Assembly: GCA_027487835.1 (NCBI GenBank) | Contig: JAIYCU010000012.1 | Coordinates: 21,718-85,717 of the forward strand | Direction of reading: 5' to 3' | Length of the DNA stretch: 64,000 bases | Origin: Bacteroidota bacterium | GTDB lineage: Bacteria > Bacteroidota > Bacteroidia > UKL13-3 | Shown: piece by piece, positions 41,065 through 47,528 of the stretch | Layout of the letters: each line of letters begins with the position of its first letter | Position numbering within the stretch: the stretch's first letter is position 1 | Made by a program: the position numbers and the translations under genes | The notes under the pieces: generated by a model | Databases searched by the model: none | Seen by the model: only the letters and a program-made list of their open reading frames with translations | Told to the model about the DNA's origin: nothing

Positions 41065-41409
41065 ATGGCTATAATGATTACAGACGAATGCATCAATTGT
41101 GGTGCATGCGAACCAGAATGTCCAAACAATGCAATTTACGAAGCAGGTGCAGAGTGGGCATGGGCAGATGGAAATAACTTGTCAGGTGCACTTACTATTG
41201 ATGGAGATTCAGTACAAGTGACCCATAGATTTGGACCAAAATCTGATGATACCTATTATATTGTGACAGGTAAATGCACTGAGTGCGTTGGATTCCATGA
41301 AGAACCTCAATGCGCTGCGGTGTGTCCAGTTGATTGCTGTATAGCAGATCCTGATAATGTAGAAACGCAAGAAATTCTCTTAGAAAAGAAAAATAGAATG
41401 CATTTGTAA
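41065..41409 (+). CDS. 4Fe-4S dicluster ferredoxin
   Basis: 114 aa; [12 protein letters not shown] and [22 protein letters not shown] cysteine clusters. Confidence 0.75.
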
Positions 41410-41410
41410 C

Positions 41411-41440
41411 AAAAAGCCCTGAAAAGGGCTTTTTTATTTA
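41411..41440. terminator. bidirectional intrinsic terminator between ferredoxin (+) and SRAP (-) genes
   Basis: aaaaagccct gaa aagggctttttt. Confidence 0.7.
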
Positions 41441-42175
41441 TAATAATTTGGTTTGAGCATCTACAAAGGGCAATAATACTTGTGGCACATTGCTGCCTTT
41501 ATGCCCTATTAAATTGCTTATTTTATAGGCAAGCATATTTTCTTCCGCTAATGGATTAATAGTGTTTATCAATTCGCTTGCATCAATTGTTTGGTTCAAC
41601 CATAAAACTTCTGCTTCTTTAGGTAAAATCAAAGGCATTCGTTTTTTAGTATTATGAATTGTTGCCATCAAAGGATTTGCCTCAGTAGTTAGAATAGAAA
41701 ATGTATTGTAAACTGTTTTATCAGCTGGGTTTACCCAACTATCAGTAATGCCAGCAACAGAAAAGATATTTTTGTCTTTTAAGGAAATAAAATAAGGCTG
41801 TTTTACTTTAGGGTTTAATTGTTGCCATTCAAAAAAACCGGTCATGGGCACCAAGCATCTTTGGGAAAGTATTGGTATTTTAAAGGACGGCTTCTCAAAA
41901 ATGGTTTCAATTTTGGCATTTAAGGTATTAACTTTTATTTTATCAGCCTCATCCAAATTCTTTATCCAAGAAGGAATTAGCCCCCAACTTGCAAAAGAAA
42001 ATGCTTTTGAATTTGCCTGGGAAAGGATTGGTAGAAGCGGGAAGTTAAATCCATTTATATGATAGCCAACGATGCTTGTTGGCGAAAAAAACGAAGGAAA
42101 CTCGCCTTCAAAAGGTTTTTGATAGTGCTGTGACACTTGTTCGAAAGTGGCAGCAACAGAGGCGTGGTAGCACAT
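41438..42175 (-). CDS. SOS-response-associated peptidase (SRAP/YedK/HMCES family; abasic-site DNA-protein crosslink former)
   Basis: 245 aa starting MC (Cys2 nucleophile), PMTGFFEWQ (catalytic Glu), IHNTKKRMPLIL (His + RMP motif). Confidence 0.7.
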   Translation of the reverse strand: MCYHASVAATFEQVSQHYQKPFEGEFPSFFSPTSIVGYHINGFNFPLLPILSQANSKAFSFASWGLIPSWIKNLDEADKIKVNTLNAKIETIFEKPSFKIPILSQRCLVPMTGFFEWQQLNPKVKQPYFISLKDKNIFSVAGITDSWVNPADKTVYNTFSILTTEANPLMATIHNTKKRMPLILPKEAEVLWLNQTIDASELINTINPLAEENMLAYKISNLIGHKGSNVPQVLLPFVDAQTKLL

Positions 42176-43347
42176 TATAAAGAAATTAATATAGTGATAA
42201 TCAAATCTAGGATTAAGGTAAGTACTACTAAAACAGGCGTTAAAATCCTAACTGTATAATTCAGGTTGTCTAAAGAATGTACCGCATTCAACTCTTTATA
42301 GTGGTAATACCGAAAAATTTTAATGATGATTAATCCAAACAAAATGGTTCTCATTTCGGCAAAAAACCAATGGCTCACATCTGACTGTTTGTTGGCCATA
42401 AAAACAATAAATAGAATTAACAATCCAATGATGCCAAAGAATTGAAAAATTGGAATCACTTTGTTTTCAAATGGCAAGTGCCAAGGCTCTCCAGTTGGAA
42501 TTTTTTCATCTAATATTGTATTAACCTCCTTAGTTTCTTGTTCTTCAAAGCTATAATCATTGGCAATGTTTAAAGGATTTTGCCTCAATAAATGGCACAA
42601 ATGCCAATAAACATCAGGCAACTCCTCGCTAAAAGATTTTGGTACTTCAAAAAAATTTTCAATGCAAACGGAAAAAAATTCAGCTTTGTTTTCACCCGCA
42701 TATTCTCTAAAAAAATCTTCATTTCCATGCCTGATGCGTTTAAAAACCTCGTAACCATTTGCTTCCCAATCGTCAAAATAGTTCACCAATCTAGCATCAA
42801 ACCCTTCACCTTTTAAGGCCTGTAAGCGAAGCATATGTGCGAATTCATGTAGTCCTAAGTTATACGTAGCGGTTGAAAAATGGTATCCTTCTTCAAAATC
42901 TTTCCAACTAATAAAAACCACGCCATTGCCTAAAGCTAAACCCTTGACCCAATTTTCTGCTAATCGGCTATAAAAGATTCCAGGAAACACTACTACCCCC
43001 TTAAGAAAAGGCATTACTGGTTTATTAAAACCAAAAGTTAATTGGGTAATGCATGCACAAATGAGGGTTCTCACTTCTTTGGTAATTTCAAAGTCTTCTC
43101 TACCCTGAATTTGAATGGCGCTTTTTACAAACTTTAACCTGCCTTGAAATTTCACCTTACCCAAATAAGATAAGCCTGCATAATATGGGTTTTTAGCGCT
43201 AATTAAAGCATCAATTTCATTAAAGTTACTTGCAGTGTAATAGTTTGGATTTTGTTTTTCAAATTCGCTTTTTGGCTTCCAAACAAAGTATTTAAGGTAT
43301 TGCCAAACAGTTAATAAAACGTAAAAAGTAAACTCAGAAATCCGCAT
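42175..43347 (-). CDS. M90 (MtfA-like) zinc metallopeptidase with extra N- and C-terminal transmembrane segments
   Basis: NLGLHEFAHML (HExxH) and AEFFSVCIENFFEVP matching the MtfA EFFAV.SE.FF..P motif; hydrophobic stretches at both ends; its stop overlaps the SRAP start (TAATG at 42173-42177). Confidence 0.55.
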   Translation of the reverse strand: MRISEFTFYVLLTVWQYLKYFVWKPKSEFEKQNPNYYTASNFNEIDALISAKNPYYAGLSYLGKVKFQGRLKFVKSAIQIQGREDFEITKEVRTLICACITQLTFGFNKPVMPFLKGVVVFPGIFYSRLAENWVKGLALGNGVVFISWKDFEEGYHFSTATYNLGLHEFAHMLRLQALKGEGFDARLVNYFDDWEANGYEVFKRIRHGNEDFFREYAGENKAEFFSVCIENFFEVPKSFSEELPDVYWHLCHLLRQNPLNIANDYSFEEQETKEVNTILDEKIPTGEPWHLPFENKVIPIFQFFGIIGLLILFIVFMANKQSDVSHWFFAEMRTILFGLIIIKIFRYYHYKELNAVHSLDNLNYTVRILTPVLVVLTLILDLIITILISL

Positions 43348-43353
43348 GAGCGA

Positions 43354-44862
43354 TTACTCAGCAGTTTTACTAGAATTATCCAAATTTTCTGGCTTCTCCT
43401 CTCCTTTTAAATAGCTTGGCAAGTTTAATCCAGCCATATTAAAAAGGTCATTTAAAGGTGGAACAGTTTTCATCATGTTAGAGACAAAGTTTGAGGTACT
43501 ACTTCCCCCATTTTCTGCATTATTACCAGAATCCCAAACAGTAATCTTATCAATCTTAATATTCTTAACTGCTTCCACTTGAGTTTTAACCAACTCAGGT
43601 AATTTCTCAATAAGCAATAATTGGAAGGCTTTGGTTGGATCTCCACCAGCTGCCTTCACCACTTGCTCGTATCCTTCGGCTTGTTTGGTTAGAATTTCAA
43701 ATAAACCTTTTGCTTCTGCTTCCATTTTAGAATAAATGGCATCTGCTTGGCCTTTTGCATTTTCTCTAATTCTCTCAGCCTCAGCCTGAGCTTCTATTAT
43801 GGCGCGTTCTTTGGCAATTTCTGCCGGTATAATGATATTGGCAATTTGGGTAGAACGTTCTCTTTCAGAGCGAGCCAATTCGGCTTTTTGCTCTGCAACA
43901 TAGGCTTCTTCTAAAGCTTTTGCTTGTTGAACTTTTTCAGCGGTTATGGCAATTCTTAATGATTCTGCTTCCTTCTCCCTTCTTAAAGCTTCTGAATTGG
44001 CAATTGCAATTTTTGCTTCATTCTCTCCTTTTATGGCAATTGCATTTGCTTCAGAAGTTTTAATCCTTGTATCTCTCTCAGCCTCTGCTTTACCAATAGA
44101 TTCATCTTTGGAAGCGGCGGCAATACTCACTTCTCTATCTTTTTTTGTAATGGCAATCTTAACATCACGGTCGCGATGAGTTTCTGCAATTTGAGTATCC
44201 TTTTCTCTATCTGCTATCGCTTTACCAGTCTCACCAATTTTCTCTTGTTCAGCAACCGAAACTTTTGCCTCATTAATGGCTTTAGCTGCAGCTTCTTTTC
44301 CCAATGCCTCAATATAACCAGATTCATCTTTGATATCGGTAACGTTTACATTGATAAGTTTTAGTCCAATTTTCTTCAACTCGCTATCCACGTTCTTAGA
44401 AATATTATCAAGAAACTTGTCACGATCAGAATTGATTTCCTCAATGGTCATGGTAGCAATTACCAAACGTAATTGTCCAAAAAGAATGTCTTTTGCAAGT
44501 TCTTGAATTTGCTCTGAAGTTAAGCCTAATAAACGCTCTGCTGCAGTATTCATGCTATCTGGCTCTGTAGAGATGGCAATTGTAAATCTACAAGGAACAT
44601 CTACTCTAATGTTTTGGCGACTTAACGCGTTTGTTAAATTTGCCTCAATTGAAATTGGCTTTAAATCTAAAAATGCATAATCTTGAATTACAGGCCAAAT
44701 AAAAGCTCCACCACCATGAATACATTTGGCAGAGGTACCTCCGGTTTTTCCATAAACTACTAAAATCTTATCAGAAGGACATCTTTTATACCTGTTTATA
44801 ATGGCATAAATAGTTACAAATGCAACTGTAACAAAAATCAAAATGAGAATAAATGGCGACAT
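43354..44862 (-). CDS. flotillin-like SPFH/band-7 protein
   Basis: 502 aa; N-terminal TM, SPFH domain, long EA-rich coiled-coil (AEQKAELAR, AEAERIRENAKGQADAI). Confidence 0.8.
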   Translation of the reverse strand: MSPFILILIFVTVAFVTIYAIINRYKRCPSDKILVVYGKTGGTSAKCIHGGGAFIWPVIQDYAFLDLKPISIEANLTNALSRQNIRVDVPCRFTIAISTEPDSMNTAAERLLGLTSEQIQELAKDILFGQLRLVIATMTIEEINSDRDKFLDNISKNVDSELKKIGLKLINVNVTDIKDESGYIEALGKEAAAKAINEAKVSVAEQEKIGETGKAIADREKDTQIAETHRDRDVKIAITKKDREVSIAAASKDESIGKAEAERDTRIKTSEANAIAIKGENEAKIAIANSEALRREKEAESLRIAITAEKVQQAKALEEAYVAEQKAELARSERERSTQIANIIIPAEIAKERAIIEAQAEAERIRENAKGQADAIYSKMEAEAKGLFEILTKQAEGYEQVVKAAGGDPTKAFQLLLIEKLPELVKTQVEAVKNIKIDKITVWDSGNNAENGGSSTSNFVSNMMKTVPPLNDLFNMAGLNLPSYLKGEEKPENLDNSSKTAE

Positions 44863-44868
44863 ATAAAT

Positions 44869-45432
44869 TTATTTTTTTACTAATAATAATCCTGTTTCAT
44901 CGGCTTTGATTACAGTAACCAAGGAGCCTGTTTCAATACCTTCTTCTTCGGTATAGGCATCTAATTCATGGGTTGAACCCTTAACACTAATAAGAACTTT
45001 TCCTTTTCCAGATTTGTGGGCAGGTATTTTAAGATATACTTCGGCTGTTTTGCCTATTGTTTCATGATATACAAATGAATTATCCTCTGCAAGCTTGCTA
45101 ACCTGCATAAGTATAAAAACAAATACCAACATAAAAACTACACCTACTAAAAACGAAACCAAAACCAATAGCCACATGGCATTAATTTGATGGTAAAAGG
45201 TAATACCCGACCATGAAAATCCTAATAGAAAATTGATTAAATTCCTGAAAGTAAATAATTGAAAGGGCATATCCCCTTCTAAATTGCTATCAAAGTCGGC
45301 TACCGCACCATCTGTGGCATCTCCTCCAAAAAAAGTCATAATGGTTTGACCCAAAAAAATTAAACTCACAGGTATTGCTATGTACCAAAGCGTTCTAAGG
45401 CTTGGCTCAAGTTGATTTAAATATTCTAACAT
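44869..45432 (-). CDS. NfeD-like membrane protein (flotillin-associated)
   Basis: 187 aa; TM helices then C-terminal OB-fold (GKGKVLISVKGSTHELDAYTEEEGIETGSLVTVIKADETGLLLV); immediately upstream of flotillin in the same orientation. Confidence 0.7.
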   Translation of the reverse strand: MLEYLNQLEPSLRTLWYIAIPVSLIFLGQTIMTFFGGDATDGAVADFDSNLEGDMPFQLFTFRNLINFLLGFSWSGITFYHQINAMWLLVLVSFLVGVVFMLVFVFILMQVSKLAEDNSFVYHETIGKTAEVYLKIPAHKSGKGKVLISVKGSTHELDAYTEEEGIETGSLVTVIKADETGLLLVKK

Positions 45433-45546
45433 GGCTATGGTTGATTAAAATATCAAATAGTAAGGTGAATAAAGCTTCAAAATAGTAATTTATCGAAGGT
45501 AAGAAATAATGTGAAATTTAGAAATGGTGACCATTATAGAAAATAA

Positions 45547-46344
45547 TTATTTTTTAAATGGGTTGAACACAAACACCAAATCTGCTATTCCATCTTCCTT
45601 ACCTATTTGCAAAGTATCTAAACTATTTTTATAAAACTGAGCATTTTCTAATAATTGAAACATGGCTTTCTCTTGATCAATTTCAGGGCAGCTTTTTCGG
45701 GTTGATCCAACTTTTCCAATCTTAAGTTTTAGAGAAGATTCAAGTTGATAAGTACCAAAAAATGAGTTGCAAAATCCTTGACCTTCAAATTTATTTAAAG
45801 AATTATCAAATTGAATAAAGGGTGTTTTTACGTTTAAAGGTCCATTAATGTTAACGCCCATCATTTCAGTTAATTCCCAGTATTTATTATTAATATCATT
45901 TTCTAATTTAGAGAATTTATATTGTTCAGCATTATCACCAGTTTGCTCAATTGCATTATAATCTAATTGCATAATACCTGCTGGGATTATTTTATAGTAA
46001 ACAGCTTTTTCACCCAAAACGGGGTCGCCAATTCTAAATATCTCACCTTCTGTTTTCCATTCAAAGGTTCCTTTAAACTCAATAATTTCTGAGCTTTTAC
46101 CACTATAACAATAGCGATTAGTATAGCTTAAATCTTCATTTAATTGCAACATTGTGATAAGTCCATCGCAGTTATTGCAAGGCAATGTTGCTAAGTACCT
46201 ACCAGTCCAGTTGGGTTTTGTTTGATAGATTTCCTTCATATTTGGTGCTACAGGTCCGGTTGCACTGATATTTCCTGTATTTTCACAAGAGACGAAAATA
46301 AAAAGGAAAAGCTGCCCTATCAAAAGGAATATGAATTTCTGCAT
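45547..46344 (-). CDS. lipoprotein fusing NlpE(CutF) N-terminal-like domain and META/HslJ-like domain
   Basis: lipobox FVSC; GRYLATLPCNNCDGLITMLQLNEDLSY resembles the NlpE N-domain CxxC region; C-terminal WELTEMMG...FCNSFFGTYQ resembles the META (DUF306/HslJ) domain. Confidence 0.55.
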   Translation of the reverse strand: MQKFIFLLIGQLFLFIFVSCENTGNISATGPVAPNMKEIYQTKPNWTGRYLATLPCNNCDGLITMLQLNEDLSYTNRYCYSGKSSEIIEFKGTFEWKTEGEIFRIGDPVLGEKAVYYKIIPAGIMQLDYNAIEQTGDNAEQYKFSKLENDINNKYWELTEMMGVNINGPLNVKTPFIQFDNSLNKFEGQGFCNSFFGTYQLESSLKLKIGKVGSTRKSCPEIDQEKAMFQLLENAQFYKNSLDTLQIGKEDGIADLVFVFNPFKK

Positions 46345-46406
46345 GAAGGTTATTTTTTGCGTGAAATATACAAAATCCAGTACTTTTTCATATTACCTTC
46401 GCTTTC

Positions 46407-47528
46407 ATGTATATTGTCATCAATACTCGACTTTTGATTAAAGACAAATTAGATGGAATTGGTTGGTTTACCTACCACACAGTTAAACGTTTGGTTCAAA
46501 ACCACCCAAGTATTAAGTTTACTTTTTTATTTGATAGACCCTTTGCGCCAGAATTTATCTTTAGTGAAAATGTAAAGGCTATTGTGCTCTCTCCTCCTGC
46601 TAGGCATCCATTACTATATATCTTATATTTTGAAGTTGCAGTGAAACGATTTCTTAGAAAAACTAAACCTGATTTGTTTTTTAGTACCGATGGTTTTTTA
46701 GTTTTAAATTCCAATACAAAGCAGCTTGCTGTCATGCATGATATTAATTTTTTGCATCATCCAAACGATTTGAAATATGCCTTTAGAAAATATTATAATT
46801 ACTTCTTTCCAAGGTTTGCTAAAACTGCGATAAGAATTGCTACAGTAAGTAAATACAGTAAAAGCGACATTGCGAAAAACTATCAAATTGCACCTGAAAA
46901 AATTGATGTAGTCTATAATGGCATCAATGATGGTTATCATGTTTTGGATTCAAATCTAATAGAGCCTATTAGGCAAAAATACAGTCAAGGAAAGCCTTAT
47001 TTTTTATTTGTTGGCTCGCAAAGTCCACGTAAAAATTTACAACGTTTGATTCTTGCCTTTACGCAATTTAGGGAATTGCATTCAGTCGAATTTCATCTGG
47101 TATTAGCTGGAAGTTCTTTTTGGGGGGATGCTGCTTTAAAAGCAACTTGGGAACAATCTTCCGTTAAAGATTGTATTCATTTTACAGGAAGGGTTAGTCA
47201 GGAAGAATTAACCCAAATTGTTGGTGCAAGTTATGCTATGAGTTTTATCCCATACTATGAAGGTTTTGGTATTCCTATGATTGAAGCCATGGCATCAGGT
47301 GTGCCAGTAATTGCGGCTAATACCTCATGTTTACCAGAAATTGCAGGAGAAGCTGCGCTATTTGTAAATCCATATGATGAAAGAGCTATTGCTGAAGCCA
47401 TGTTAAAATTGGCTAGCGACCCAAGTTTAAAAGCCTCGTTGATAGCAAAGGGTTTGGTTCAAGCCGAAAAATACAGTTGGGACAAAACCGCGACCTTGCT
47501 ATGGGAAAGCATTCAAAAGGCACTATAA
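46407..47528 (+). CDS. glycosyltransferase family 4
   Basis: 373 aa; C-terminal EGFGIPMIEAMASGVPVIAANTSCLPE typical of GT4 (E-x7-E). Confidence 0.8.
   Translation: MYIVINTRLLIKDKLDGIGWFTYHTVKRLVQNHPSIKFTFLFDRPFAPEFIFSENVKAIVLSPPARHPLLYILYFEVAVKRFLRKTKPDLFFSTDGFLVLNSNTKQLAVMHDINFLHHPNDLKYAFRKYYNYFFPRFAKTAIRIATVSKYSKSDIAKNYQIAPEKIDVVYNGINDGYHVLDSNLIEPIRQKYSQGKPYFLFVGSQSPRKNLQRLILAFTQFRELHSVEFHLVLAGSSFWGDAALKATWEQSSVKDCIHFTGRVSQEELTQIVGASYAMSFIPYYEGFGIPMIEAMASGVPVIAANTSCLPEIAGEAALFVNPYDERAIAEAMLKLASDPSLKASLIAKGLVQAEKYSWDKTATLLWESIQKAL

What the first reader, a model, noticed from the sequence alone, without database searches (positions are those of the whole stretch)
41438..45432. Translationally coupled MtfA-like membrane Zn-peptidase and SRAP (abasic-site crosslinking) gene pair beside a flotillin-NfeD operon
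The M90/MtfA-like HExxH peptidase gene (42175..43347) ends in TAA overlapping the ATG of the SRAP/YedK-family gene (TAATG at 42173-42177), implying co-translation. The peptidase carries extra N- and C-terminal hydrophobic segments absent from soluble MtfA. SRAP proteins covalently trap abasic sites in ssDNA and must later be removed, by proteolysis or reversal. A dedicated, coupled protease partner is not a described arrangement, to my knowledge. Immediately upstream, in the same orientation, are nfeD and a flotillin (SPFH) gene, a membrane-microdomain scaffold pair that often organises proteases. The four genes share a strand with gaps of 0-7 nt and may be a single transcription unit.
Basis: inference. 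Interest (0 to 1): 0.5.

Follow-up and report, generated by a model that had tools for sequence, protein, structure and literature searches.

The report
Chance-linked peptidase and DNA-repair genes
The four genes are real and probably share one transcript. However, the membrane zinc peptidase is an optional gene that close relatives have deleted without losing the DNA-repair (SRAP) gene, so it is unlikely to be SRAP's dedicated protease.

Summary
On the minus strand lie an NfeD-like gene, a flotillin, a membrane-anchored M90 (MtfA-like) zinc peptidase and an SRAP gene. Gaps are 6, 6 and -1 nt (TAATG), and the only convincing terminator follows SRAP.

The functional reading is not supported. 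Among 160 M90 loci from Bacteroidota (80 species genomes, 80 metagenome contigs), SRAP lies next to M90 only in one clade. There it always sits on the same backbone: GT4 | X | SRAP | ferredoxin | LuxC | arginase | ODC. Slot X varies: empty, M90, flotillin-like–M90, NlpE–NfeD–flotillin–M90, or NlpE–NfeD–flotillin.

Two genomes about 97% identical in flanking DNA differ by exact loss of the M90 gene, with SRAP intact. A third genome keeps deletion scars of flotillin and M90. Fifteen other species carry the same peptidase with no SRAP within 6 kb.

So the pairing arose once, was inherited with general synteny, and was broken at least five times. YedK crosslinks also reverse on their own.

The peptidase domain is predicted to face the cytoplasm, so topology does not exclude the idea. 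A weaker lead remains: two different flotillin-type genes sit directly upstream of this peptidase in separate lineages.

The parts
41438..42175 (-). SRAP (YedK/HMCES-family abasic-site crosslinking protein), 245 aa. It is a fixed member of the conserved backbone.
   Evidence: PF02586 scores 164.6 bits against a cut-off of 27.1. The best solved relative is 2F20 (E=2e-53). Cys2 is present, and the Glu (FFEW) and His (IHN) align with the HMCES FYEW and IHH motifs. The gene is present and full length in every backbone locus that covers it, with or without M90.
42175..43347 (-). Membrane-anchored M90 (MtfA-like) zinc peptidase, 390 aa. It has an N-terminal helix, a cytoplasmic catalytic domain and three C-terminal TM helices. 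It is an accessory gene.
   Evidence: PF06167 E=4e-30. H167, E168, H171 and E223 are invariant in 30 family members. The AF2 model has pLDDT 88; the top fold matches are Klebsiella MtfA 3DL1/3KHI with TM 0.76. The K/R distribution predicts a cytoplasmic catalytic domain. The gene is absent from close relatives L081, L087 and L088.
42173..42177 (-). TAATG stop/start overlap between M90 and SRAP.
   Evidence: Read directly from the sequence. It is kept in L084 (CTAATG). L001 has a 1-nt gap. More distant members of the clade have gaps of about 12-24 nt.
43354..44862 (-). Flotillin-type SPFH protein, 502 aa (FloT/YqiK-like).
   Evidence: Band_7 E=1e-31. The NCBIfam FloT model scores 205.8 bits, below its equivalog cut-off of 700. 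It is 96-99% identical in L001, L081 and L084.
44869..45432 (-). NfeD-like membrane protein, 187 aa, the usual upstream partner of flotillin.
   Evidence: Pfam NfeD gives only E=0.12 over residues 123-179. There are 1901 homologues; some are named 'NfeD family protein' and two carry PF01957. It sits directly upstream of a flotillin in unrelated Bacteroidota contexts.
45547..46344 (-). NlpE-N/META-domain lipoprotein, same strand, 114 nt upstream of nfeD. It travels with the nfeD-flotillin insert in this genus.
   Evidence: Pfam META E=4e-19 and NlpE E=5e-14. It is present in L001, L081, L084 and L087 but not in the more distant backbone loci.
41411..41434 (.). G+C-rich hairpin with T runs on both sides. 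It is a likely bidirectional terminator shared by SRAP and the convergent ferredoxin gene.
   Evidence: Terminator scan: 10-bp stem, 4-nt loop, and the sequence itself. No comparable site lies between the four genes; three weak 5-7 bp candidates inside them were discounted.
41065..41409 (+). Ferredoxin gene, convergent with SRAP. Backbone neighbour.
   Evidence: Pfam Fer4. It is adjacent to SRAP in every backbone locus that reaches it.
46407..47528 (+). GT4 glycosyltransferase. It marks the other edge of the variable slot.
   Evidence: The ORF is. Orthologues flank the slot in L001-L004, L081, L084, L087, L088, L090 and L096.

Best explanation
The cluster is a lineage-specific juxtaposition of three independent modules. 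These are an nfeD-flotillin pair (with an NlpE/META lipoprotein gene), a stand-alone membrane-anchored M90 zinc peptidase, and a housekeeping SRAP gene. They sit in a variable slot of a conserved backbone: GT4 | slot | SRAP | ferredoxin | LuxC | arginase | Orn/Arg decarboxylase.

The genes are probably co-transcribed, ending at the hairpin after SRAP. M90 came to lie upstream of SRAP once, in the ancestor of one uncultured Bacteroidia clade. It has since been inherited along with the rest of the synteny.

M90 is an accessory gene. It is a catalytically intact peptidase whose active domain is predicted to face the cytoplasm while tethered to the inner membrane. Its most likely role is membrane-proximal proteolysis of unknown substrates. 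SRAP works as in other bacteria: it crosslinks through Cys2 to abasic sites in ssDNA and is released by self-reversal. It does not depend on M90.

Shown here: gene identities, conserved catalytic residues, the comparative pattern and the deletions. Inferred: co-transcription, topology and the peptidase's role.
For: (1) M90-side survey. tblastn of the window proteins against 80 species-representative loci finds SRAP next to M90 only in L001-L004 and L022, always with ferredoxin and, where the contig reaches it, LuxC. Fifteen further species (L005, L008-L020) and the L006/L007/L021 group have the full-length peptidase with no SRAP within 6 kb. A Pfam scan of same-strand downstream neighbours gives SRAP in 4 of 47. 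Eighty metagenome loci add one more case, L094.

(2) One origin. The SRAP-linked loci form one clade in the M90 tree. They all sit on the same backbone.

(3) Losses with SRAP kept. L081 has flotillin, then 31 nt, then SRAP. L087 has nfeD, then 144 nt, then SRAP. L088/L089 have GT4, then about 100 nt, then SRAP.
- L084 (M90 present) and L081 (M90 absent) are 96.8-97.5% identical over 13.5 kb of flanks. They differ by replacement of the 1185-nt M90 segment with 41 nt.
- The L087 spacer holds a 55-nt flotillin remnant (44/55 identical) and a 26-nt remnant of the M90 3' end (20/26).

(4) Other breaks. A GNAT gene is inserted between M90 and SRAP in L002. In L006, L007, L021 and L095, M90 stays with its upstream flotillin-like gene but has no SRAP.

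(5) Control. The convergent ferredoxin gene is adjacent to SRAP in every backbone locus that reaches it. Synteny here is therefore generally high and is no sign of function.

(6) nfeD-flotillin pairs elsewhere in Bacteroidota have neither M90 nor SRAP downstream.

(7) The YedK crosslink reverses enzymatically with a half-time of 2-4 h, so no protease is required (PMC9436759).

(8) Published SRAP neighbourhoods are UmuCD, ImuA-ImuB-DnaE2, DinB, Ku/ligase and a RecD-like helicase, not M90 (PMC3765255).
Against: - The adjacency has survived to about 45% M90 identity in at least eight lineages, mostly with tight spacing (-1 to about 24 nt), which is more than a fleeting accident.
- The catalytic domain is predicted to be on the same side of the membrane as SRAP.
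- I could not check whether genomes that lost M90 at this locus keep a copy elsewhere.
- Co-transcription itself is untested.
- The peptidase's real substrates are unknown, so 'membrane-proximal proteolysis' is a default, not a finding.
Confidence: 0.7

Rival explanations
1. One reading: the M90 peptidase is a dedicated protease, translationally coupled to SRAP. It degrades SRAP once SRAP is crosslinked to an abasic site, as a bacterial counterpart of SPRTN or the proteasome acting on HMCES.
For: - TAATG overlap in the window and in L084.
- The adjacency is kept in eight lineages of one clade.
- The catalytic residues are invariant.
- The catalytic domain is predicted to be cytoplasmic.
- No such partner has been described in the searched library.
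Against: - The adjacency has a single origin on one syntenic backbone.
- SRAP stays intact after M90 deletion, even within a species.
- Most orthologues of the peptidase are unlinked to SRAP.
- A GNAT gene is inserted between the two in L002.
- Pfam detects only the M90 domain, with no DNA-binding domain.
- Four membrane helices tether the enzyme away from most of the nucleoid.
- SRAP crosslinks self-reverse.
Confidence: 0.08
2. The M90 peptidase is a flotillin-associated membrane protease. It would be a client or partner held in flotillin microdomains, in the way SPFH proteins partner FtsH (HflK/C) or the NfeD-ClpP protease (stomatin). SRAP would be a bystander at the end of the operon.
For: - Two very different flotillin-type genes occupy the position directly upstream of M90, with 4-6 nt gaps, in two sub-clades. 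One is the 502-aa FloT-like gene with nfeD (window, L001, L084). The other is a 639-aa gene with an SPFH domain and EA-rich repeats (L002, L006, L007, L021, L094, L095).
- The 639-aa gene and M90 stay together off the backbone, where SRAP is absent.
- Both proteins are predicted to expose their bulk to the cytoplasm (flotillin topology is from general knowledge of FloT/YqiK).
Against: - Only 5 of 44 same-strand upstream neighbours of Bacteroidota M90 genes are SPFH, all within this one clade.
- Sister clades of the same peptidase have no SPFH neighbour.
- nfeD-flotillin pairs elsewhere lack M90.
- L081 keeps flotillin after losing M90.
- There are only two events, so chance in a variable slot cannot be ruled out.
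Confidence: 0.2

Closest known systems
MtfA (Mlc titration factor A), peptidase family M90; solved structures 3DL1/3KHI from Klebsiella pneumoniae
   Same: Same catalytic fold (Foldseek TM 0.76 on the target). Same HExxH motif plus a downstream Glu.
   Different: - The sequence match covers only about residues 136-269.
- It scores 45.6 bits against the MtfA equivalog cut-off of 400.
- It carries an N-terminal helix and three C-terminal TM helices that soluble MtfA lacks.
- Nothing here suggests Mlc binding.
YedK (E. coli), BT_1218-like 2F20 and HMCES: the SRAP family
   Same: Full-length SRAP domain with Cys2 and the conserved Glu and His. The expected chemistry is a thiazolidine crosslink to abasic sites in ssDNA, with self-reversal (PMC9436759).
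   Different: It is not in any of the described SOS, translesion-polymerase or Ku contexts (PMC3765255). Here it is a backbone gene next to ferredoxin and LuxC.
nfeD-flotillin operons (B. subtilis yuaF-floT, E. coli yqiJ-yqiK; SPFH2 class of Hinderhofer et al. 2009, PMC2636767)
   Same: A small NfeD-like membrane protein gene lies directly upstream of a roughly 500-aa flotillin. This pair recurs in varied Bacteroidota contexts.
   Different: In this genus the pair is followed on the same strand by M90 and SRAP, and preceded by an NlpE/META lipoprotein gene.
HMCES crosslink resolution by SPRTN or the proteasome (eukaryotes)
   Different: M90 is unrelated to SprT/Wss1-type proteases, has no detected DNA-binding domain, and is membrane-anchored. 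Its linkage to SRAP is not conserved.
SPFH-protease pairs: HflK/C-FtsH and stomatin with NfeD-ClpP (PH1510/PH1511)
   Same: An SPFH scaffold gene lies next to a membrane protease gene (PMC2636767).
   Different: The protease family is different (M90). The link is seen only in two sub-clades and is untested.

Membership tests
SRAP (PF02586; YedK/HMCES) | Full-length SRAP domain above the curated threshold | tested here: met
   164.6 bits against a cut-off of 27.1, covering model positions 1-212 of 214.
SRAP (PF02586; YedK/HMCES) | N-terminal Cys2 nucleophile plus the catalytic Glu and His | tested here: met
   The protein starts M-C-Y-H. FFEW aligns with HMCES FYEW, and IHN aligns with HMCES IHH. 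The residue roles come from PMC9436759.
SRAP (PF02586; YedK/HMCES) | Covalent crosslinking to abasic sites in ssDNA | not testable with these tools
   This needs biochemistry.
Peptidase M90 (PF06167) | M90 domain above threshold, with HExxH and a downstream Glu ligand | tested here: met
   105.5 bits against a cut-off of 26.2. H167, E168, H171 and E223 are invariant in 30 sequences. The fold match to 3DL1/3KHI has TM 0.76.
MtfA proper (NCBIfam NF011939 equivalog) | Score above the equivalog cut-off; a soluble, roughly 265-aa protein | tested here: not met
   45.6 bits against a cut-off of 400. The protein is 390 aa with four long hydrophobic helices.
Flotillin (SPFH2; FloT/YqiK-like) | N-terminal membrane anchor, SPFH domain and a flotillin-type C-terminal region | tested here: met
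   Band_7 E=1e-31 over residues 29-208. The FloT model aligns over residues 7-484. The N-terminal hydrophobic stretch is visible in the translation. Related flotillins carry a weak Flot domain hit.
Flotillin (SPFH2; FloT/YqiK-like) | FloT equivalog score | tested here: not met
   205.8 bits against a cut-off of 700. It is flotillin-like, not a FloT orthologue.
NfeD family | NfeD C-terminal OB-fold domain (PF01957) above threshold | tested here: inconclusive
   Pfam gives E=0.12 and 13.1 bits against a cut-off of 29.1, and there is no PDB sequence match. However, homologues are named NfeD family, two carry PF01957, and the gene always precedes a flotillin.
Dedicated SRAP-protease pair (hypothetical; analogy HMCES-SPRTN) | Linkage conserved across lineages and arising independently more than once | tested here: not met
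   There is one clade and one backbone. M90 was lost three times with SRAP kept, once within a species. Most orthologues are unlinked.
Dedicated SRAP-protease pair (hypothetical; analogy HMCES-SPRTN) | Protease active site in the same compartment as DNA | tested here: met
   The positive-inside rule applied to 30 sequences gives mean K/R counts of 3.0 after helix 1 against 0.17 in the N-tail, and 4.2 in the TM3-TM4 loop against 0.6 in the TM2-TM3 loop. The catalytic domain is therefore predicted to be cytoplasmic. This is a prediction only.
Dedicated SRAP-protease pair (hypothetical; analogy HMCES-SPRTN) | DNA-binding module in the protease | tested here: not met
   Pfam and NCBIfam detect only the M90 domain. 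The rest of the model is membrane helices.
SPFH scaffold-membrane protease module | Recurrent operon linkage of the protease with an SPFH gene | tested here: inconclusive
   Two different flotillin-type genes lie directly upstream of M90 in two sub-clades. There is no such link in the sister clades or in other nfeD-flotillin operons.

The most novel reading that the evidence does not exclude
In this Bacteroidia clade, the membrane-tethered M90 peptidase would be an optional bacterial protease that clears SRAP-DNA crosslinks. It would be a functional analogue of SPRTN acting on HMCES, possibly working at flotillin-organised membrane sites. Strains that lost it would fall back on SRAP self-reversal.
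Probability: 0.08. Interest if true: 0.7.

Novelty: new member of a known kind. Interest (0 to 1): 0.2.

Why it matters
The evidence instead shows a gene order inherited from one ancestor and easily lost, so the cluster should not be used to infer such a pathway.

Two smaller points remain useful:
- A membrane-anchored branch of the MtfA/M90 peptidase family exists in Bacteroidota. I found no paper on it in two targeted co-occurrence searches.
- Its repeated placement just downstream of flotillin-type genes is a cheap lead for anyone studying bacterial flotillin clients.

Tried and rejected
- **Sigma-70 promoter scan:** 22 sites against 19.9 expected, so it is uninformative. It is also the wrong promoter type for Bacteroidota.
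- **Bacteroidota -7 motif TAnnTTTG:** 106 matches against 108 expected in the window. The copy 27 nt upstream of the SRAP start (42202-42209) is not kept in L084 or L001. There is therefore no evidence for an internal SRAP promoter.
- **PADLOC defence models:** no hit for any of the five proteins. A defence-island reading was dropped.
- **PDB sequence search with the NfeD-like protein:** nothing, even at E=10.
- **Cluster look-up and exact-protein look-up to name the organism:** no taxon name was obtained. They showed only that the window's genes recur in pond metagenome runs.
- **Literature:** no paper holds SRAP/YedK together with MtfA, and none of the listed top hits holds MtfA together with flotillin, SPFH or NfeD.
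- **Considered and rejected:** that M90 was inserted in L084 rather than deleted in L081. L087 carries remnants of both flotillin and the M90 3' end. More distant relatives (L003, L090) already have M90-SRAP.

Full report
**Observation**

- an NfeD-like gene, 45432..44869;
- a flotillin, 44862..43354;
- an M90 peptidase, 43347..42175;
- an SRAP gene, 42175..41438.

Pfam confirms Band_7 (E=1e-31), Peptidase_M90 (E=4e-30) and SRAP (E=3e-48). The M90 stop and the SRAP start share one base (TAATG). The other two gaps are 6 nt.

The NfeD-like protein does not reach Pfam's threshold (E=0.12) and has no PDB sequence match. It does have 1901 homologues. Some are named NfeD family, two carry PF01957, and the gene always lies directly upstream of a flotillin.

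The only convincing terminator-like hairpin follows SRAP (41411-41434). It faces the convergent ferredoxin gene. The scan also lists three weak minus-strand candidates inside the genes (5-7 bp stems). Seven sites were found against 4.1 expected, and I discounted the weak ones. One transcription unit is plausible but untested.

**The two proteins at issue**

SRAP looks ordinary and intact.
- Its best solved relative is the Bacteroides structural-genomics protein 2F20 (E=2e-53).
- Cys2 is present.
- The conserved Glu and His align with those of HMCES.

The peptidase is a real but divergent M90 member.
- H167, E168, H171 and E223 are invariant in 30 family members.
- An AF2 model (pLDDT 88, pTM 0.82) matches Klebsiella MtfA 3DL1/3KHI with TM 0.76.
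- It is not an MtfA orthologue: it scores 45.6 bits against a cut-off of 400.
- It has long helices at 3-32, 292-318, 322-350 and 359-389.

I applied the positive-inside rule to the 30-sequence alignment.
- Mean K/R counts are 3.0 after helix 1 against 0.17 in the N-tail.
- Mean K/R counts are 4.2 around the TM3-TM4 loop against 0.6 around the TM2-TM3 loop.
- Both halves agree on N-terminus out, catalytic domain in the cytoplasm, C-terminus out.

**Survey from the M90 side**

A scan of one genome per GTDB species returned 80 Bacteroidota M90 loci.
- tblastn with the window's proteins finds SRAP beside M90 only in L001, L002, L003, L004 and L022. Ferredoxin follows in all five, and LuxC wherever the contig extends far enough.
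- Fifteen further species (L005, L008-L020) have the same full-length membrane-anchored peptidase with no SRAP within 6 kb. So does the L006/L007/L021 group.
- In the fifteen, the downstream gene is usually convergent and unrelated: a glycosyltransferase, OmpA-family protein, tryptophan dioxygenase or polyketide cyclase. In L006 and L007 it is a histidine kinase.
- A Pfam scan of all same-strand downstream neighbours gives SRAP in 4 of 47. Peptidase_M24 appears in 14 of 47, next to a different M90 subfamily.
- Eighty metagenome loci add one more M90-SRAP case, L094.
- In a neighbour-joining tree of the peptidase, all SRAP-linked loci fall in one clade.

**Survey from the SRAP side**

Looking up close and middling SRAP homologues shows a conserved backbone:

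GT4(-) | X | SRAP(+) | ferredoxin(-) | LuxC(+) | arginase(-) | Orn/Arg decarboxylase(+)

Only slot X varies:

| Slot X content | Loci |
|---|---|
| empty | L088/L089 |
| M90 | L003, L004, L090-93, L096 |
| 639-aa flotillin-like gene + M90 | L094 |
| 639-aa flotillin-like gene + M90 + GNAT | L002 |
| NlpE/META-NfeD-flotillin-M90 | window, L001, L084 |
| NlpE/META-NfeD-flotillin | L081 |
| NlpE/META-NfeD | L087 |

The convergent ferredoxin gene cannot share a transcript with SRAP. Yet it is adjacent to SRAP in every backbone locus that reaches it, which is more constant than M90. Persistence of adjacency in this clade therefore reflects generally high synteny, not function.

**Deletions**

- L084 (M90 present, TAATG overlap kept) and L081 (M90 absent) are 96.8% and 97.5% identical in DNA over 5.8 and 7.7 kb of flanks. 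That is species-level similarity.
- They differ by replacement of the 1185-nt M90 segment with 41 nt.
- In L087, the 144-nt spacer between nfeD and SRAP holds a 55-nt flotillin remnant (44/55 identical). It also holds a 26-nt remnant of the M90 3' end (20/26). This is a deletion scar.
- SRAP is a full 245 aa in all of these.

M90 is therefore an accessory gene. It was lost at least three times while SRAP was kept. It was separated from SRAP in the L006 group and split from it by a GNAT gene in L002.

**Literature**

- YedK and HMCES reverse their own crosslink. For YedK the half-time is 2-4 h, and reversal depends on Glu105 (PMC9436759). A protease is therefore not a necessity.
- The published SRAP neighbourhoods are translesion-polymerase, Ku/ligase and helicase operons. 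The metallopeptidase noted there is DUF955, linked to ImuB-C, not M90 (PMC3765255).
- No paper in the library holds SRAP/YedK together with MtfA.

**Conclusion on mechanism**

The most likely account is a juxtaposition of independent modules in a variable slot, probably read as one transcript. SRAP acts as usual. The peptidase is a dispensable, cytoplasm-facing, membrane-tethered zinc peptidase of unknown substrate. Confidence is 0.7. The dedicated-protease model is left at about 0.08.

**A lead that remains**

Two very different flotillin-type genes sit 4-6 nt upstream of this peptidase in two sub-clades.
- One is the 502-aa FloT-like gene with nfeD.
- The other is a 639-aa protein with an N-terminal TM helix, an SPFH domain at residues 241-454 and EA-rich repeats.
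- The second pair stays together where SRAP is absent (L006, L007, L021, L095).

This fits the known theme of SPFH scaffolds working with membrane proteases (PMC2636767). Three points count against it:
- These are only two events.
- nfeD-flotillin pairs elsewhere lack M90.
- L081 keeps flotillin without M90.

I give it about 0.2.

**Novelty and score**

All four genes belong to known families, and the arrangement is lineage-specific. The membrane-anchored M90 branch is uncharacterised but is not a new kind of system. Interest is 0.2.

Noticed in passing
L002:4050-5969; L006:4062-5978; L007:4005-5978; L021:97-2013; L094:229-2124; L095:1032-2945: A 639-aa flotillin-like protein lies 4 nt upstream of the membrane-anchored M90 gene, or overlaps its longest ORF, in six loci. 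It has an N-terminal TM helix, a roughly 210-aa extension with repeated PE(G/D)KIGL motifs, an SPFH domain and EA-rich repeats. It is about 91% identical across loci whose M90 proteins are only about 47% identical. The pair occurs both on and off the SRAP backbone.
   Followed up: partly
L053-L080 (for example L056:7216-8508, L067:7222-8514): A different Bacteroidota M90 subfamily (about 395 aa, one hydrophobic segment near residue 270) is followed on the same strand by an Xaa-Pro aminopeptidase gene (Peptidase_M24 + AMP_N). This holds for 14 of 47 scanned downstream neighbours.
   Followed up: no
window 42176-46406 (between SRAP at 41438..42175 and GT4 at 46407..47528), compared with L001-L004, L081, L084, L087, L088, L090: The interval between the divergent GT4 gene and SRAP is a variable slot in an otherwise rigid backbone. 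Its content ranges from nothing to four genes across relatives.
   Followed up: yes
L021:2018-3189: The M90 gene is split into two overlapping ORFs (205 and 196 aa). This is either a frameshifted pseudogene or an assembly error.
   Followed up: no
L066:5836-8558: Two M90-family genes lie in tandem (476 aa and 431 aa), the second overlapping the first by 4 nt.
   Followed up: no
L178:5001-8772 and L179:5001-8772: In a Flavobacteriales lineage, the nfeD-flotillin pair is followed 157 nt downstream, on the same strand, by Ada-like (HTH_AraC + methyltransferase) and AlkB-like (2OG-Fe(II) oxygenase) DNA-repair genes. This is a second case of a DNA-repair gene trailing a flotillin operon. It may be coincidence.
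   Followed up: no
window 45547-46344 (-): An NlpE-N + META domain lipoprotein gene sits 114 nt upstream of nfeD on the same strand. It is present only in the genomes that carry the nfeD-flotillin insert, which suggests a three-gene envelope-related cassette.
   Followed up: partly
window 43354-44862 compared with 42175-43347 and 41438-42175: Evolutionary rates are very uneven within the cluster. Against L001, L081 and L084, flotillin is 96-99% identical, while M90 is 67-74% and SRAP is 62-72%.
   Followed up: no
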